Below are positions 1,562 to 35,521 of a stretch of DNA of 64,000 bases, piece after piece (positions within the stretch are counted from its first letter, which is position 1; the number at the start of each line of letters is the position of its first letter). The DNA is from Escherichia phage ECML-4. Below the pieces are notes generated by a model, which saw nothing but the letters and a program-made list of their open reading frames with translations, did no database searches and had not been told where the DNA came from. Both the position numbers and the translations under genes were made by a program. Location of the stretch: sequence record JX128257, one strand, 5' to 3'.

Positions 1562-1602
1562 TTTAAATACCTCTGCAATCACTGCGGAGGTATTTTCTTA
1601 TG
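1562..1602 (+). promoter_or_regulatory. late-promoter-like motif TTTAAATA overlapping a 13 bp hairpin that sequesters the endolysin SD
   Basis: Inverted repeat AAATACCTCTGCA / TGCGGAGGTATTT (about 1565-1595) contains GGAGG 10 nt before the ATG at 1600. Confidence 0.45.
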
Positions 1603-2394
1603 GCCATTCTAAAACTTGGCAACCGAGGTTCTGAAGTCAAATCACTTCAGCAAAGCCTCAATAAAATCGGGTTCTCTCTTGTAGCTGATGGCATATTTGG
1701 CAAAGCGACCGAGAATGCTGTCAAATCCGTTCAGGCAGGTGCCGGACTGGTGATTGATGGTATTGCAGGTCCAAAAACCTTCTATGCTATCCGTAATGCC
1801 GGAGACGCTCATCAGGAACATCTTACCGAAGCCGACTTAGTTGACGCAGCGCGTGAACTTGGTGTCGAACTGGCCAGCATGAAAGCTGTTAACCAGGTCG
1901 AATCTCGGGGAACGGGTTTCACCAAAACAGGTAAGATCAAAACTCTGTTCGAGCGCCACATCATGTATAAGAAAGTGGCGGCTAAATTCGGACAAGCAAG
2001 AGCCAATGCTCTGTACCAACTTTACCCAACATTGGTTAACCCCAATTCTGGTGGCTATATCGGCGGAGACGCGGAGTTGGAACGCCTTCAGGGTGCAATC
2101 GCCCTTGATGAGGATTGCGCGTACGAGAGTGCGTCCTACGGCTTATTCCAGATCATGGGGTTCAATTGCCAGATATGTGGTTATCCGAACGCCAAAGAAA
2201 TGTTCACAGATTTTCTGACTGGTGAACGCGCACATCTTCTGGCATTTGTGAAATTCATCAAAGCTGACGCCAATATGTGGAAAGCATTGAAGAACAAAAA
2301 TTGGGCTGAGTTCGCCCGTCGGTACAATGGTCCAGCATATGCCAAGAACCAGTATGACACCAAACTAGCGGCGGCATACAAGAGTTTCTGTTAA
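1600..2394 (+). CDS. endolysin: N-terminal peptidoglycan-binding domain plus C-terminal N-acetylmuramidase-like catalytic domain
   Basis: N-terminus matches PG_binding_1 repeat pattern (SEVKSLQQSLNKIGF...DGIFGKATENAV...DGIAGPKT); C-terminus carries GLFQIMG-type muramidase motif. Confidence 0.85.
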   Translation: MAILKLGNRGSEVKSLQQSLNKIGFSLVADGIFGKATENAVKSVQAGAGLVIDGIAGPKTFYAIRNAGDAHQEHLTEADLVDAARELGVELASMKAVNQVESRGTGFTKTGKIKTLFERHIMYKKVAAKFGQARANALYQLYPTLVNPNSGGYIGGDAELERLQGAIALDEDCAYESASYGLFQIMGFNCQICGYPNAKEMFTDFLTGERAHLLAFVKFIKADANMWKALKNKNWAEFARRYNGPAYAKNQYDTKLAAAYKSFC

Positions 2395-8257: not shown

Positions 8258-8638
8258 TCAATTTGTCCGTTTCAACCATATGGTGTCTGTTATCGGCTCT
8301 GGGTTGTTGACCACATAAAAAGTTATGGTTACACCCAGAGAATGATAATCGTCAGACAATGACACATCAACTGATTGTATCTCCGCTCTCGGTTCAAATA
8401 AAGCAATCGCGTCTTCAACTTTGTTTTTAACATCAACCTGAATTGTGGGATTCGTATTTTCCCCCAGCATGGTATACAGCCCAGCCCCGATACTTGGGTA
8501 TGTCGGCCAATCCCCAACTGTTGTCATCACGATATTTCGTACGGATTGCAACACGGCATAGACACCTGTTTTCTTTGTGACATCTTTGGTGACCGGATGC
8601 ATGCCAAACTTCAGGTCAATGTCCTTGTACTCTTTCAT
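8258..8638 (-). CDS. gp25: baseplate wedge protein, gp25-like
   Basis: Size and sequence pattern of the T4 gp25 / GPW family; ATG at 8638 with AAGGGG SD (track start 8671 is GTG). Confidence 0.75.
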   Translation of the reverse strand: MKEYKDIDLKFGMHPVTKDVTKKTGVYAVLQSVRNIVMTTVGDWPTYPSIGAGLYTMLGENTNPTIQVDVKNKVEDAIALFEPRAEIQSVDVSLSDDYHSLGVTITFYVVNNPEPITDTIWLKRTN

Positions 8639-8702: not shown

Positions 8703-10328
8703 TCATGCGTCTTTACCACCAAAGTTGCCGCCATTATCCTCCAGTTCCGGTTTTATATCAATTGGACCAGGACCAGAAGTAGATACTGGAGTTGCCCCAG
8801 CGCGTGATGCAGCACGACCAGCACCTTCAGCATATTTGATGTTGCCTTCAATAGTCTGAGCCACCGACAACTTATCACAAACTATTTCACTAGCCAGTAT
8901 TTTAGGCACTTTCAAAGTGTTGGAAACTTCCAACATCTCACAGATGATACGCATCACGTTTTGCGCCTGAATTTCGGCCAGCTGTGAAAATTTCATCAAC
9001 GCCGTGCCAGCAACCACATTGGAGTAGTTCGATGAATGTAGATGATAGACCTCACCTGTCTTGCGCTGAACTTCAGTCCCACCAATGGTCAGGTTGTGAT
9101 CACGACCAACATAGTAACGTTTGTCAAACATCGTCAGATCATAATGATCTTTGACTGATTTATTGACCACGTCCCCGTCAGGAAGCATCTGCTTATAAGA
9201 CCCCGAGGAGTGCATCCAATGGAGACGTTCCCCGCCTGGTGTGTCATCAACCTCCATGATATGCCCTGACCGAGATGCCATGACATTGTTGTAAGGATAA
9301 CGAGACCCGCCAGCAGAAGGAACCGACACCTCTCCTGTGTTATCAATATCTTGAACACGCCCAGAAGGGGGCGGAGTTTCCTGAACTTTTGGTGTACGAT
9401 CAGGGATTGGCTCAGACCATTTACCATTTTGTTGCGCAGGAGCCGCCGATGCTGTCGTAGCAGGACCAGGCCAACGATAACCCAACACAGATGAGCGGCT
9501 GAAGCGACTCACCTTCACAGAATCTGATTGGTTGCCTCCAATACACCAAACATAATTGGCATCGAATTTCTGCACGAACGCAACGTGTCCGAATGTTGGG
9601 TTGTTGCCACGCCGGAATACAACAACAGCGCCGTAGCGGGGTTCCGACAAAGGGGAACCCCATTGCAAATATGAACGAGCCAAAGCCGAGCGCGTTGAAG
9701 TGTATCCTGCTTGGATTAACACCCATCCCACAAATGAAGCGCACCAGCTGACTTCATCTTCCGAAGCGCCCAAAGATGTTGTCTTGTGATATTCCAAAAT
9801 CCTTGGGTTATTATTGAATTTGCCAGAATATTCTTTGACACCTAATTCACCACGAGCCACTGTCATCCATTTCTCAGGATCATAACCGTCCACAGGCGGT
9901 TGAGGTTCTGGTTGTGGGTCGTCTTCAATCTTGACAGGAACATTTTCAACGGCGTTATATTTCTGTCTTTCTATAGATTGAACAACCTGGCCCAGCGCCA
10001 ACGGGTTTGTGTCTGAACCATCCGTTGGTGTCGCCGCTGGCCAAACCCAGGCGATACGAATATTTTGGTATGCTTCATCCAAAGCAAATCCCATAACATC
10101 CGACCCGACTGTAATACCCGTTGGAGACCAGCCTAAACCTGCCGAGGAGGCGTTGGATGCTGGCATGAGCATTTTACCCCAAGGCAATAATTCGGTAGGT
10201 AAGAGAGTGGTATCTTCCGTGTGTACACCATAGATGCGCACAGCGACGCGCCCGTTCTGGTCGGGATCATTCACGTCTTCAACGCGCCCGTAAAACCAAC
10301 GCAAGTTGTCTAACATATTGAAACCCAT
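8703..10328 (-). CDS. gp5: baseplate hub / tail-associated cell-wall hydrolase, gp5-like with CHAP (NlpC/P60-type) domain
   Basis: N-terminal gp5-like OB region, central Cys-His hydrolase motifs (SWCASFVGWVL ... GHVAFV), position next to gp25. Confidence 0.75.
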   Translation of the reverse strand: MGFNMLDNLRWFYGRVEDVNDPDQNGRVAVRIYGVHTEDTTLLPTELLPWGKMLMPASNASSAGLGWSPTGITVGSDVMGFALDEAYQNIRIAWVWPAATPTDGSDTNPLALGQVVQSIERQKYNAVENVPVKIEDDPQPEPQPPVDGYDPEKWMTVARGELGVKEYSGKFNNNPRILEYHKTTSLGASEDEVSWCASFVGWVLIQAGYTSTRSALARSYLQWGSPLSEPRYGAVVVFRRGNNPTFGHVAFVQKFDANYVWCIGGNQSDSVKVSRFSRSSVLGYRWPGPATTASAAPAQQNGKWSEPIPDRTPKVQETPPPSGRVQDIDNTGEVSVPSAGGSRYPYNNVMASRSGHIMEVDDTPGGERLHWMHSSGSYKQMLPDGDVVNKSVKDHYDLTMFDKRYYVGRDHNLTIGGTEVQRKTGEVYHLHSSNYSNVVAGTALMKFSQLAEIQAQNVMRIICEMLEVSNTLKVPKILASEIVCDKLSVAQTIEGNIKYAEGAGRAASRAGATPVSTSGPGPIDIKPELEDNGGNFGGKDA

Positions 10329-10342
10329 TAGTCAATTAGAAT

Positions 10343-10352
10343 CATGGGTTAT
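10343..10352 (-). promoter_or_regulatory. near-consensus late promoter (CATAAATA) upstream of gp5-like gene
   Basis: Reverse complement of GTTATTTATG about 20 nt upstream of the ATG at 10328. Confidence 0.35.
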
Positions 10353-10649
10353 TTATGGCGGGGATTTGAAATCTGTCGAATAGTAATATTATAGGAAGCT
10401 CTGCTTCCGTTCAACTTTATTCTTTTCGTTTCTACTCGCTGAAGCTCGTAACACCGCCTTGACAGGCAGTCCCATTCCAATGCCATGGAGGCATAAAGGC
10501 GAGGAAAATACTGTACACCTCAGAACATGCGTAGAAAAGGATTATTTTTGCTTCAAAACAAATTCAAACCCCAATTTACACAACACTTACTTCAGCAACA
10601 ACGGTGTTATAGCAATTTAAGGTTAAACGTTCCTGTCTTAACCTATAAA

Positions 10650-10681
10650 ACAGGTAAGCAAAGAAAACCCCACATTACGTG
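10650..10681 (-). terminator. rho-independent terminator (minus strand)
   Basis: AACCCCAC-ATTAC-GTGGGGTT stem followed on the minus strand by TTTTCTTTGCTT. Confidence 0.7.
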
Positions 10682-10835
10682 GGGTTGGAAGATTTCTTGG
10701 ACAAACGTATCTTTAGTGTCTCTGTTAGCAAATCAAGATGCCAAGGCATCGACTCGCTTATTTCAAATATGCTATAGCCATGTGCCTTTAATTCGTCACA
10801 CATCACAAAGTAGGAGAGTAAATCAATTTCAAAAA

Positions 10836-11639
10836 TTAAATGAAAATTTCAGTGACACTGTTAAATTTGACTTCATGTTCTTTCCCACACGAAGGACATT
10901 TAATTTTCGTCGCGTAACGGATACGAGGAATCTTTTTAAAGAAATCGTCGGATATATCTTGAACAATCTCAGATTCAATATTTTCCCCCACCCATTTAAC
11001 AAATTCATCTTTGACGCGTTGACGTTCTTTAGCAACATCAGGTGCTATGCCAGGCTCTGCCGGATTCTCTACTTTCCAAACCTGACCATCATCGTCATAC
11101 AAACAATCAATAAATGTCGCGATCATTTGCTCCACAGATGATGCTTCGTTGAGCACTGAGGCGTCCGAGAAGGACGGTTGACGCATCTTGATGTGATAGC
11201 CACCAGGGAGGTCAAATGTTTCCCTGAAGCCTTCTGGGGACACGCATTTCACTTGGTTGAGGGGGATCGGTAAAACAAGTTCTTGACCACATTCTTTAAG
11301 GCCAGAAACTGGTTCTTCACCTTCATTTGTGTCGGATGGAACTTTGTTGTTACATTTGTATCGTATCTTCATGACCTCGCCGATAGATATACAGCGCATC
11401 TTTAAAAATACTTCTTCAGTAACACCGATTGGCAGTTTACTAAAGGGAACCCCAGCGTCAACACAACTATCAAACAGTTGCTCCAGCGTCGCCACACGTT
11501 CACTCATAGGAGTGTTCGGATCAGCAACCTGAAGTAACATGGTCTGTTGCCCTGCTGTAAAAGCGCGGTATTTAATCACCGTCGGCCAGAAATCACTTTT
11601 GTGTGTTCTCTCAGTTTTGGGCAATGATGGTAAATTCAT
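10836..11639 (-). CDS. late structural protein with C-terminal zinc ribbon (possible baseplate hub component)
   Basis: ATG at 11639 with GGAG SD and TATAAATA 29 nt upstream; C-terminal CPSCGKEH motif. The longer track ORF start overlaps the divergent gene. Confidence 0.55.
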   Translation of the reverse strand: MNLPSLPKTERTHKSDFWPTVIKYRAFTAGQQTMLLQVADPNTPMSERVATLEQLFDSCVDAGVPFSKLPIGVTEEVFLKMRCISIGEVMKIRYKCNNKVPSDTNEGEEPVSGLKECGQELVLPIPLNQVKCVSPEGFRETFDLPGGYHIKMRQPSFSDASVLNEASSVEQMIATFIDCLYDDDGQVWKVENPAEPGIAPDVAKERQRVKDEFVKWVGENIESEIVQDISDDFFKKIPRIRYATKIKCPSCGKEHEVKFNSVTEIFI

Positions 11640-11667
11640 AATGTATCTCCACGGTATATTGTAACCA

Positions 11668-11675
11668 TATTTATA
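11668..11675 (-). promoter_or_regulatory. T4-type late promoter motif TATAAATA (minus strand)
   Basis: Exact TATAAATA on the minus strand upstream of the start at 11639. Confidence 0.5.
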
Positions 11676-16469: not shown

Positions 16470-16477
16470 TATTTATA
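16470..16477 (-). promoter_or_regulatory. T4-type late promoter motif TATAAATA (minus strand)
   Basis: Exact TATAAATA on the minus strand in the divergent intergenic region. Confidence 0.5.
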
Positions 16478-34132: not shown

Positions 34133-35521
34133 TCAGACCTTCTGGGCTTGTCCTTTCTCTATTGGCGTCGGAGTTGGTGTAGAAGCCACAGTTTGACCAG
34201 TCTGAGGCGGTAAGACCTTCTGGATCATACTATCTTTGGCAATCTCAGCGACGCATTGATAATCATTTGTCAGGCGTGAAATCTTGTGGCGTATCTTTGT
34301 GACGATATAATGGCCTGTTGATAACTTACTTAACTCGGCAATGTTTTCATTAGATTTCGGGCGGTTCGACAAATCTTCAATATAATAAACCTGCCCAACA
34401 TTCAGACGGTTATCCCCCACGACCAGCAAACGCATAACCGTTGATGCGAGGCTGAATTCTATAACGCGTCGTGCGTAATCTATTTGTTCGGCACCATCCG
34501 GTTGCGCTTCAATGTACCTAACGTTCTCGCGGTCGAATTGATCAGAGAACAAAGGGAACGGATCAAGGTGAGCAGTGCTGTCAAACCATTCTGAATAAAT
34601 GCGTTGGGTCGCTGTCGTGGATTTTGTACTAAAGTCATACACGCGCTCGTTCACTGCCAAGATATCCCGATAATTCGCCATGTACTGATCACGCGCCAGT
34701 TTCTTTTCAGCCTTGATGATCGTCCGCATAAAACGTTCGGAGTTGAAGTTGTTGTCTTGCATCAACGGGGCATCTTGAGGATCACGGAAGAATTTCTTTT
34801 CCGCGCTTGCCTCTTGTTTCTCTTCAGCAGTCATGGACTGATTGCCCTGGTTGAACAATGTCGTCATGCTCTTGAAGTGATAGCCTGTGAAGTCTTCATA
34901 GAAAACAAATGGCATAAACAATTCGTCGTATGCGCGGCTGGCCATATAATCGATGGAACGAAGTACAGGCCAAAGAGGAGTTGCGAATCGTTCTTGCACA
35001 CCATACGACGGATCTATGTCTTCAAATTTGGTTCGAGAATTTAACTGCTCAAAAATCTTGGCCGCCATTTCTGAATAAGAACCGCTCAGACCGATAGACT
35101 TACGCAGCATGCTGTCACGGTACGCATCTGTTGTCACCAAGTGCAGCCAAAATGCTTTTTTAGATGATGAATTGGATTCATCCGCAACTCTGCCCACCCG
35201 ACTCACGCGCAATGAGAGAGTAGTGTAATCAGAAGCCGCTGGTGATTTGAATGACACCACCACTTCTTCACCGCCAAGTATCGGCATTGTGTCCAATATA
35301 TCCCAACCTTCTTTTATCAAGATATTGGCTGTCAGTGAAGGAGAAGCATTACCTTCCAAACCAAGATCTTGGTAGACGTTGAATTCTTGAAATAAAGAAG
35401 ACAGGTCATATGGTCTTGGCGTACCACCTTCTGGAGTATGTGGTAGGATCGCCATATACTTCAAATCAAATGTGGTGGACGGTGTTAAAATACCGTCTTG
35501 AGATTCTTTATTTTCGATCAT
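34133..35521 (-). CDS. baseplate hub-associated structural protein (gp27-like?)
   Basis: Position directly upstream of the tape-measure-like gene in the same operon; no motif-level confirmation. Confidence 0.45.
   Translation of the reverse strand: MIENKESQDGILTPSTTFDLKYMAILPHTPEGGTPRPYDLSSLFQEFNVYQDLGLEGNASPSLTANILIKEGWDILDTMPILGGEEVVVSFKSPAASDYTTLSLRVSRVGRVADESNSSSKKAFWLHLVTTDAYRDSMLRKSIGLSGSYSEMAAKIFEQLNSRTKFEDIDPSYGVQERFATPLWPVLRSIDYMASRAYDELFMPFVFYEDFTGYHFKSMTTLFNQGNQSMTAEEKQEASAEKKFFRDPQDAPLMQDNNFNSERFMRTIIKAEKKLARDQYMANYRDILAVNERVYDFSTKSTTATQRIYSEWFDSTAHLDPFPLFSDQFDRENVRYIEAQPDGAEQIDYARRVIEFSLASTVMRLLVVGDNRLNVGQVYYIEDLSNRPKSNENIAELSKLSTGHYIVTKIRHKISRLTNDYQCVAEIAKDSMIQKVLPPQTGQTVASTPTPTPIEKGQAQKV

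What the first reader, a model, noticed from the sequence alone, without database searches (positions are those of the whole stretch)
8703..10328. gp5-like baseplate hub carrying a CHAP/NlpC-P60-type hydrolase instead of a lysozyme domain
The central region has the Cys and His motifs (SWCASFVGWVL, GHVAFV) of CHAP-type amidases/peptidases embedded in a gp5-like protein. This implies the tail tip uses a cysteine peptidase or amidase rather than the T4-type glycosidase for local peptidoglycan digestion during penetration.
Basis: partly seen in the sequence, partly recalled or inferred. Interest (0 to 1): 0.45.

Follow-up and report, generated by a model that had tools for sequence, protein, structure and literature searches.

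The report
Phage tail spike carrying a peptidase
This gene encodes the tail-tip spike of a Vi01-like Salmonella phage, in which the usual T4-type lysozyme is replaced by an NlpC/P60-type cysteine peptidase; the reading is correct, but the same architecture was published for the sister phage CBA120 in 2011.

The parts
8703..10316 (-). gp5-type baseplate central spike / hub gene. The conserved start is at 10316 (537 aa). The longest ORF starts at 10328 (541 aa). The stop codon is 8703-8705.
   Evidence: 100% aa identity to Vi01 Gp5; start codon
9993..10316 (-). N-terminal OB-fold domain (aa 5-112), homologous to T4 gp5 residues about 6-128
   Evidence: Pfam Gp5_OB; alignments to 1k28, 1wth and 9f4a; pLDDT 80-90 in the model
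9879..9992 (-). Linker 1 (aa 113-150), including a predicted helix and the Pro-rich stretch PQPEPQPP
   Evidence: Low-confidence region of the model; alignment A1
9465..9878 (-). TIGR02594 / NlpC-P60 / CHAP-type papain-like cysteine peptidase domain (aa 151-288), in the place of the T4 lysozyme domain
9741..9743 (-). Codon of the predicted nucleophile Cys196, at the N-terminus of helix 196-206
   Evidence: Present in 29 of 30 aligned sequences; the one exception is a non-gp5 TIR-domain protein
9585..9587 (-). Codon of the predicted general base His248, in strand 247-255
   Evidence: Invariant in 30 of 30 sequences
9528..9533 (-). Codons of Asn266-Gln267 (GGNQ motif), the candidate third polar residue of the triad
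   Evidence: Invariant in 30 of 30 sequences. The Pfam CHAP match ends at residue 266, the last profile position. Geometry was not measured.
9309..9464 (-). Linker 2 (aa 289-340), Ala/Pro-rich. It corresponds in position to the T4 gp5 region that holds the maturation cleavage site.
   Evidence: Whether it is cleaved here was not tested.
8706..9308 (-). C-terminal gp5C-like region (aa 341-541). Aa 341-436 are homologous to T4 gp5 384-477. Aa about 406-505 show an 8-residue periodicity compatible with a trimeric beta-helix.
   Evidence: The monomer model has low confidence here, so the beta-helix is inferred.
10350..10357 (-). CATAAATA, a late-promoter-like box about 30 nt upstream of the gp5 start
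   Evidence: Invariant in three genera. LIMEstone1 annotates a putative late promoter at the same place. ATAAATA occurs only 5 times in 64 kb, and 3 of those lie 30-40 nt upstream of gp5, gp26 and gp54-like starts.
8258..8638 (-). gp25-type baseplate wedge / sheath-initiator gene immediately downstream, probably in the same late transcription unit
   Evidence: Pfam GPW_gp25, PHROG 261/43, Vi01 annotation
10836..11639 (-). gp26-type baseplate hub gene upstream, with an exact TATAAATA 30 nt before its ATG at 11639
   Evidence: Pfam T4_baseplate E 1.9e-51

Best explanation
The gene encodes the baseplate central spike (T4 gp5 homologue) of a Kuttervirus. The N-terminal OB domain and the C-terminal gp5C-like region are homologous to T4 gp5. 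The T4 lysozyme module between them has been exchanged for a TIGR02594-type NlpC/P60-superfamily cysteine peptidase. By analogy with T4, a gp5 trimer sits at the tip of the tail tube. On sheath contraction the spike is driven through the outer membrane, and the three peptidase domains reach the periplasm. There they cut peptide stems or cross-links of the peptidoglycan locally, most likely as a gamma-D-Glu-mDAP D,L-endopeptidase, so that the tube can pass. Shown here: homology of the flanks, family and fold of the centre, conservation of the catalytic residues, and the baseplate gene context. Taken from the literature: presence of the protein in virions. Inferred: trimeric beta-helix, catalytic activity, bond specificity, and its role and timing in infection.
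Against: No enzymatic assay for this protein or for any TIGR02594 member turned up in the searched literature. No solved structure of an Ackermannviridae baseplate was found. The C-terminal half is modelled with low confidence. Bond specificity cannot be read from the fold, because related folds include D,L- and D,D-endopeptidases and amidases. T4's gp5 lysozyme is not strictly required under laboratory conditions (established knowledge), so this domain might also be dispensable.
Confidence: 0.82

Rival explanations
1. The central domain is an N-acetylmuramoyl-L-alanine amidase (CHAP-type) or a D,D-endopeptidase/L,D-carboxypeptidase, not a gamma-D-Glu-mDAP endopeptidase.
Confidence: 0.3
2. The peptidase domain is a catalytically inert structural or peptidoglycan-binding module retained in the spike.
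For: No activity data exist. One distant homologue, P0041, has Cys replaced by Ala, which shows that inactive derivatives occur in this family.
Against: All gp5-type members keep Cys, His and the GGNQ motif, and the domain is the most conserved segment of the protein.
Confidence: 0.07
3. The protein is the phage's endolysin, or a soluble lysin, mis-assigned as a baseplate component.
For: Free-standing TIGR02594 proteins of 150-250 aa are annotated as endolysins in other phages.
Against: The OB and gp5C flanks are homologous to T4 gp5. The gene lies between gp26 and gp25. Orthologues were found in virion proteomes. A separate PG_binding-muramidase endolysin is encoded at 1600..2394.
Confidence: 0.03

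Closest known systems
Gp5 of Salmonella phage Vi01 (CBW37944.1) and of E. coli phage CBA120 (537 aa), described by Kutter et al. 2011, Virol J 8:430
   Same: Identical (Vi01) or near-identical protein. The paper already reports a CHAP/TIGR02594/NlpC-P60 region at aa 150-282, flanked by T4 gp5-like regions 3-109 and 334-437.
   Different: Nothing of substance. This work adds a fold comparison, a check of the catalytic residues and the start-codon correction.
Bacteriophage T4 gp5 (tail-associated lysozyme; PDB 1k28, 1wth)
   Same: N-terminal OB domain, the first part of the C-terminal beta-helix region, the position of an enzymatic module between them, and the baseplate gene context.
   Different: The central module is a GH24 lysozyme (a glycosidase) in T4 and a papain-like cysteine peptidase here. 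In T4 the tail lysozyme is a paralogue of the endolysin. Here the endolysin is an unrelated muramidase.
Hub-hydrolase CD1368 of diffocin (8v3w_H), and the hub protein (Peptidase C51/CHAP) and NlpC/P60 protein of Staphylococcus phage phi812 (9euf, 9eum)
   Different: These machines target Gram-positive cells. Their architecture is not OB-enzyme-beta-helix of the T4 gp5 type, and they show no detectable sequence similarity outside the enzyme fold.
TIGR02594-domain T6SS effectors and free-standing phage endolysin candidates (Stenotrophomonas VgrG4-linked effector; Pseudomonas phage ZC01_075)
   Same: The same TIGR02594 domain is used as a delivered or released cell-wall enzyme.
   Different: They are separate proteins, or LysM fusions, and the domain is not embedded in a spike.
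Short OB-TIGR02594 hub proteins (for example Rhizobium phage RL2RES_241, 288 aa; metagenomic P0028, P0030, P0075, P0079)
   Same: The OB domain is followed by the same peptidase domain.
   Different: They lack the C-terminal beta-helix region.

Membership tests
T4 gp5-type baseplate central spike | N-terminal gp5 OB-fold domain | tested here: met
   Pfam Gp5_OB E 5e-10, 40.2 bits against a cut-off of 25. Aligned to T4 gp5 residues 6-91. Model pLDDT 80-90.
T4 gp5-type baseplate central spike | C-terminal gp5C region forming a trimeric beta-helix | tested here: inconclusive
   Aa 341-436 align with T4 gp5 384-477, and an 8-residue periodicity is visible to about aa 505. The monomer model has low confidence there, and no trimer prediction was possible.
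T4 gp5-type baseplate central spike | Central GH24 lysozyme domain (PF00959) | tested here: not met
   No lysozyme or glycosidase hit at E<=1. The centre does not align with T4 gp5. The protein is therefore a gp5-type spike, but not a 'tail lysozyme' in the enzymatic sense.
T4 gp5-type baseplate central spike | Encoded among baseplate genes and present in the virion | tested here: met
   The gene is flanked by gp26-type and gp25-type genes. Virion presence comes from published proteomes of orthologues and was not tested here.
T4 gp5-type baseplate central spike | Complex with a gp27-type hub trimer | not testable with these tools
   The candidate partner is at 34133..35521 (-) (PHROG 350 'tail protein'). 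It had no Pfam or PDB sequence match.
NlpC/P60-CHAP superfamily (TIGR02594 subfamily) | Profile match above the curated threshold | tested here: met
   TIGR02594 scored 133 bits against 70.55 over 131 of 132 profile positions. CHAP scored 40.7 bits against 26.
NlpC/P60-CHAP superfamily (TIGR02594 subfamily) | Papain-like alpha+beta fold | tested here: met
NlpC/P60-CHAP superfamily (TIGR02594 subfamily) | Catalytic Cys at a helix N-terminus and His in a beta-strand | tested here: met
   Cys196 starts helix 196-206 and His248 lies in strand 247-255. Cys is present in 29 of 30 sequences and His in 30 of 30.
NlpC/P60-CHAP superfamily (TIGR02594 subfamily) | Third polar triad residue correctly placed | tested here: inconclusive
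   Asn266 and Gln267 are invariant and follow the second strand of the hairpin.
NlpC/P60-CHAP superfamily (TIGR02594 subfamily) | Peptidoglycan-cleaving activity and bond specificity | not testable with these tools
   No biochemical data were found for this protein or for this subfamily.

The most novel reading that the evidence does not exclude
The enzyme finding itself is already known. The most novel reading the evidence leaves open concerns the gene's upstream region. About 115-185 nt upstream of gp5 lies a 68-nt element (10432..10499, minus strand). An equivalent copy sits upstream of the gp6 baseplate gene elsewhere in the genome. This could be an undescribed structured RNA family specific to Ackermannviridae, made of an H-type pseudoknot plus two hairpins. 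It might act as a small RNA or as a protein- or ligand-binding regulatory element tied to baseplate gene expression. A secondary possibility is that the gp5 peptidase has a bond specificity or substrate not yet seen for a Gram-negative phage spike.
Probability: 0.3. Interest if true: 0.55.

Novelty: already known. Interest (0 to 1): 0.18.

Why it matters
For annotation, nearly all GenBank records call this protein a 'tail lysozyme', although it has no glycosidase domain. 'Baseplate central spike with NlpC/P60-type peptidase' would be accurate. For biology, it illustrates that the enzymatic module of gp5-type spikes is exchangeable. OB-domain relatives carry M15 peptidase, lysozyme or SLT domains instead. 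In this phage, entry (peptidase) and exit (muramidase) attack different bonds of the wall. For applications, the domain is a candidate virion-associated lysin against Enterobacteriaceae. None of this is surprising to a specialist, and the point was published in 2011.

Tried and rejected
- **Solved structures by sequence.** Searching the PDB with the isolated domain, or with a profile of it, gave only marginal hits: 9eum at E 0.17, 4hpe at 0.07, Tae3 at 0.31. The family assignment rests on the HMMs and the fold comparison instead.
- **AlphaFold database.** The afdb50 fold library was not available.
- **Full-length model.** The monomer model was poor outside the OB and peptidase domains (mean pLDDT 57), so the C-terminal beta-helix could not be confirmed.
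- **ICP1 'Gp5'.** This is a 238-aa protein that matches only the peptidase domain. I did not treat it as a spike.
- **gp27-like partner.** The candidate at 34133..35521 gave no Pfam or PDB match. I left it as a candidate.
- **Upstream element, known families.** Rfam gave nothing and ARAGORN found no tRNA.
- **Upstream element, folding energy.** Single-sequence folding energy was not significant (z -1.09).
- **Upstream element, coding potential.** The 45-aa ORF at 10349..10486 that overlaps it is disrupted by an indel in SKML-39, so I rejected it as a gene.
- **Upstream element, weak model hits.** The two weak hits, L062 and L046, were rejected. L062 lies inside a coding region of a high-GC contig.
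- **Upstream element, pattern-only matches.** About ten pattern-only matches in IMG/VR are at the number I roughly estimated for chance.
- **Transcriptome data.** No Ackermannviridae transcriptome paper was found.

Full report
**What is there**

The window is a Kuttervirus (Ackermannviridae) genome segment. The 1626-nt ORF matches 253 phage records by megablast, the best at 99.9% (Salmonella phage vB_Sen_ST2). Its translation is 100% identical to Gp5 of Salmonella phage Vi01. The ORF at 8703..10328 (-) encodes 541 aa. The conserved start is the ATG at 10316 (Met5). Orthologues begin with MLDN, Marshall is annotated that way, and the upstream ATG is absent in SKML-39.

**Architecture**

- Pfam finds Gp5_OB (aa 39-98) and CHAP (aa 191-266), both above their gathering scores, and nothing resembling a lysozyme.
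- NCBIfam TIGR02594 covers aa 154-286 at 133 bits against a cut-off of 70.55.
- Solved T4-type gp5 chains (1k28, 1wth, 9f4a) align with aa 4-87 and 338-436 only.
- A pairwise comparison with a T4-type gp5 (phage RB6) shows conserved landmarks on both sides: the DTN motif after the OB domain and the YPY...GHI.E.DDTPG.ER block. There is no real alignment in between.

The protein is therefore a gp5-type spike whose central enzymatic module has been replaced.

**The central domain**

- A full-length AlphaFold model is confident only for the OB domain and aa about 150-290.
- A model of the domain alone (aa 140-296) has pLDDT 91.3 and pTM 0.88.
- Foldseek with the full model gives T4 gp5, then MepS and Acd24020. 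No glycosidase fold appears.
- In a 30-sequence alignment, Trp195, His248 and Gly264-Gly265-Asn266-Gln267 are invariant. Cys196 is present in 29 of 30 sequences. The exception is a TIR-domain protein that is not a spike.
- Cys196 opens helix 196-206 and His248 sits in strand 247-255, which is the papain-like arrangement.
- Among 14 full-length orthologues (60-87% identical), the peptidase domain is the best-conserved segment: 0.86 mean identity to the reference against 0.62-0.79 for the other segments. This argues for a functional enzyme.

**Context**

- gp25 lies immediately downstream (8258..8638) and a gp26-type hub gene upstream (10836..11639).
- The gp48, gp53, candidate gp27 and tape-measure-like cluster is at about 32.2-37.1 kb.
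- The endolysin is a separate PG_binding_1 + N-acetylmuramidase protein at 1600..2394. Unlike in T4, the tail enzyme is not a paralogue of the endolysin, and the two attack different bonds.

**Mechanism**

By analogy with T4 (established knowledge), a gp5 trimer tips the tail tube. Contraction drives it through the outer membrane, and the enzymatic domains then digest peptidoglycan locally. Here the enzyme would cut the peptide moiety. On fold similarity I rate a gamma-D-Glu-mDAP endopeptidase most likely (about 0.55). Amidase or D,D-endopeptidase activities are not excluded.

- Shown here: homology, fold, conserved catalytic residues and gene context.
- From the literature: the orthologues are virion proteins in ViI (cited in PMC3184105), LIMEstone and Sajous1.
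- Inferred: catalytic activity, bond specificity, the trimeric beta-helix, any maturation cleavage and the importance of the domain for infection.

**Novelty**

Kutter et al. [quoted passage not shown] They report a CHAP domain of the TIGR02594 family (NlpC_P60 superfamily) at aa 150-282, flanked by regions shared with T4 gp5. NCBI also names some copies 'TIGR02594 family protein'. The architecture is not confined to one family of phages:

- OB-TIGR02594 proteins without the beta-helix occur in Rhizobium phage RL2RES and in metagenomes.
- OB-domain relatives carry M15 peptidase, lysozyme or SLT modules instead.
- The exhaustive search found 11,727 cluster representatives at E<=1e-3. Only one of them (P0021) matched across the whole query, and it stands for the Ackermannviridae-type protein.

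The verdict is that the observation and the interpretation are correct and already known. No biochemical or structural study of this protein was found.

**Seen in passing: the 507-nt gap between gp26 and gp5**

1. A 43-aa ORF at 10675..10806 (-) is conserved in three genera, with 26 invariant residues. It is followed by a terminator-like hairpin at 10686..10666. It is unannotated in Vi01 and Marshall.

2. ATAAATA occurs only 5 times in 64 kb, against 10.5 expected, and always on the minus strand. Three of the five lie 30-40 nt upstream of the gp5, gp26 (exact TATAAATA) and gp54-like starts. This fits a T4-like late promoter.

3. A conserved element at 10432..10499 (-) lies upstream of that promoter box.
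   - Its 49-nt core recurs 47/49 identical in CBA120 about 120 nt upstream of gp6.
   - In IMG/VR it typically appears twice per genome-length (~157-kb) contig.
   - A covariance model finds exactly one copy in the window and one in CBA120 positions 50-150 kb, the part that lies almost wholly outside the window.
   - On 19 distinct copies from four named genera (plus unclassified Klebsiella phages and IMG/VR contigs) and both loci, I tested a structure with an H-type pseudoknot (S1 AUGCC/GGCAU; S2 CCAU/AUGG), a hairpin (CUGCCU/AGGCGG) and a second hairpin with tandem G.A pairs and a variable loop.
   - That structure is kept in 342 of 342 cells. Six of the 18 pairs show changes on both sides. 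Slid controls pair in only 26-51% of cells.
   - G.U pairs fix the strand as that of gp5 and gp6.
   - The two copies within a genome share lineage-specific compensatory changes (Taipeivirus; UViG 3300045988_107072). This suggests gene conversion or a shared binding partner.
   - Rfam has no match.
   - Caveats: there are few independent substitution events; part of the alignment was fitted to the model; folding energy alone is not significant; and because the putative late promoter lies downstream, it is unclear which transcript, if any, contains the element.

Noticed in passing
window 10432..10499 (- strand); second copy in CBA120 NC_016570.1 133195..133276 (L011:33195-33276, -): A conserved 68-nt non-coding element lies about 115-185 nt upstream of gp5. 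It is duplicated about 90-170 nt upstream of the gp6 baseplate wedge gene, typically giving two copies per genome. Covariation supports an H-type pseudoknot plus two hairpins: 342 of 342 cells paired in 19 distinct copies, and 6 of 18 pairs changed on both sides. G.U pairs fix the strand as that of gp5. Rfam has no match. The element lies upstream of the late-promoter-like box, so its transcript is unknown.
   Followed up: yes
window 10675..10806 (- strand): A 43-aa ORF (MMCDELKAHGYSIFEISESMPWHLDLLTETLKIRLSKKSSNPT) lies directly after gp26. It is conserved in Miltonvirus (Kevin) and Agtrevirus (SKML-39), with 26 invariant residues, and is followed by a terminator-like hairpin at 10686..10666. 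It is not annotated in Vi01 or Marshall. Its function is unknown.
   Followed up: partly
window 10350..10357, 11667..11674, 16470..16476 (- strand): (C/T)ATAAATA boxes lie 30-40 nt upstream of the gp5, gp26 and gp54-like start codons. ATAAATA is depleted in the window (5 found, 10.5 expected) and occurs only on the minus strand. This fits a T4-like late promoter, which Kutter et al. 2011 said had not been identified for ViI-like phages. gp6 copies carry CTAAATA instead.
   Followed up: partly
window 10314..10328: The longest-ORF start at 10328 is probably wrong. The conserved start is the ATG at 10316, giving 537 aa as in CBA120 and Marshall. Likewise gp26 probably starts at 11639, not 11732, and gp25 at 8638, not 8671.
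   Followed up: yes
window 1600..2394 (+ strand): The endolysin is a PG_binding_1 + N-acetylmuramidase (PF11860) protein. It is unrelated to the tail enzyme, so entry and exit use different bond specificities.
   Followed up: partly
proteins P0014, P0016, P0019, P0021, P0022 (Serratia phage vB_SmaA_3M, Erwinia phage phiEa2809 and unnamed metagenomic relatives): These gp5 orthologues (605-617 aa) carry an extra C-terminal extension of about 70 aa, ending ...G(S/Q)(K/R)P...(S/D)G..WE.(M/L). Kuttervirus gp5 lacks it. It may be an apex or tip domain.
   Followed up: no
proteins P0041, P0024, P0025 (metagenomic): P0041 combines a TIR domain (PF13676) with a TIGR02594-like domain in which the catalytic Cys is Ala. 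P0024 and P0025 combine a phage lysozyme, LysM and two NlpC/P60-type domains in one protein.
   Followed up: no
window 34133..35521 (- strand): This 462-aa 'tail protein' (PHROG 350) sits next to the gp53 and gp48 homologues and is called a T4 gp27 homologue in the LIMEstone paper. It has no Pfam or PDB sequence match. It is the presumed hub partner of gp5.
   Followed up: partly
CBA120 NC_016570.1 about 90508..91217 (L010:40508-41217): A gap of about 710 nt without annotation lies between gp45 (sliding clamp) and the next helicase gene. It contains a weak hit of the RNA model (17 bits, E 0.004), which is probably chance.
   Followed up: no
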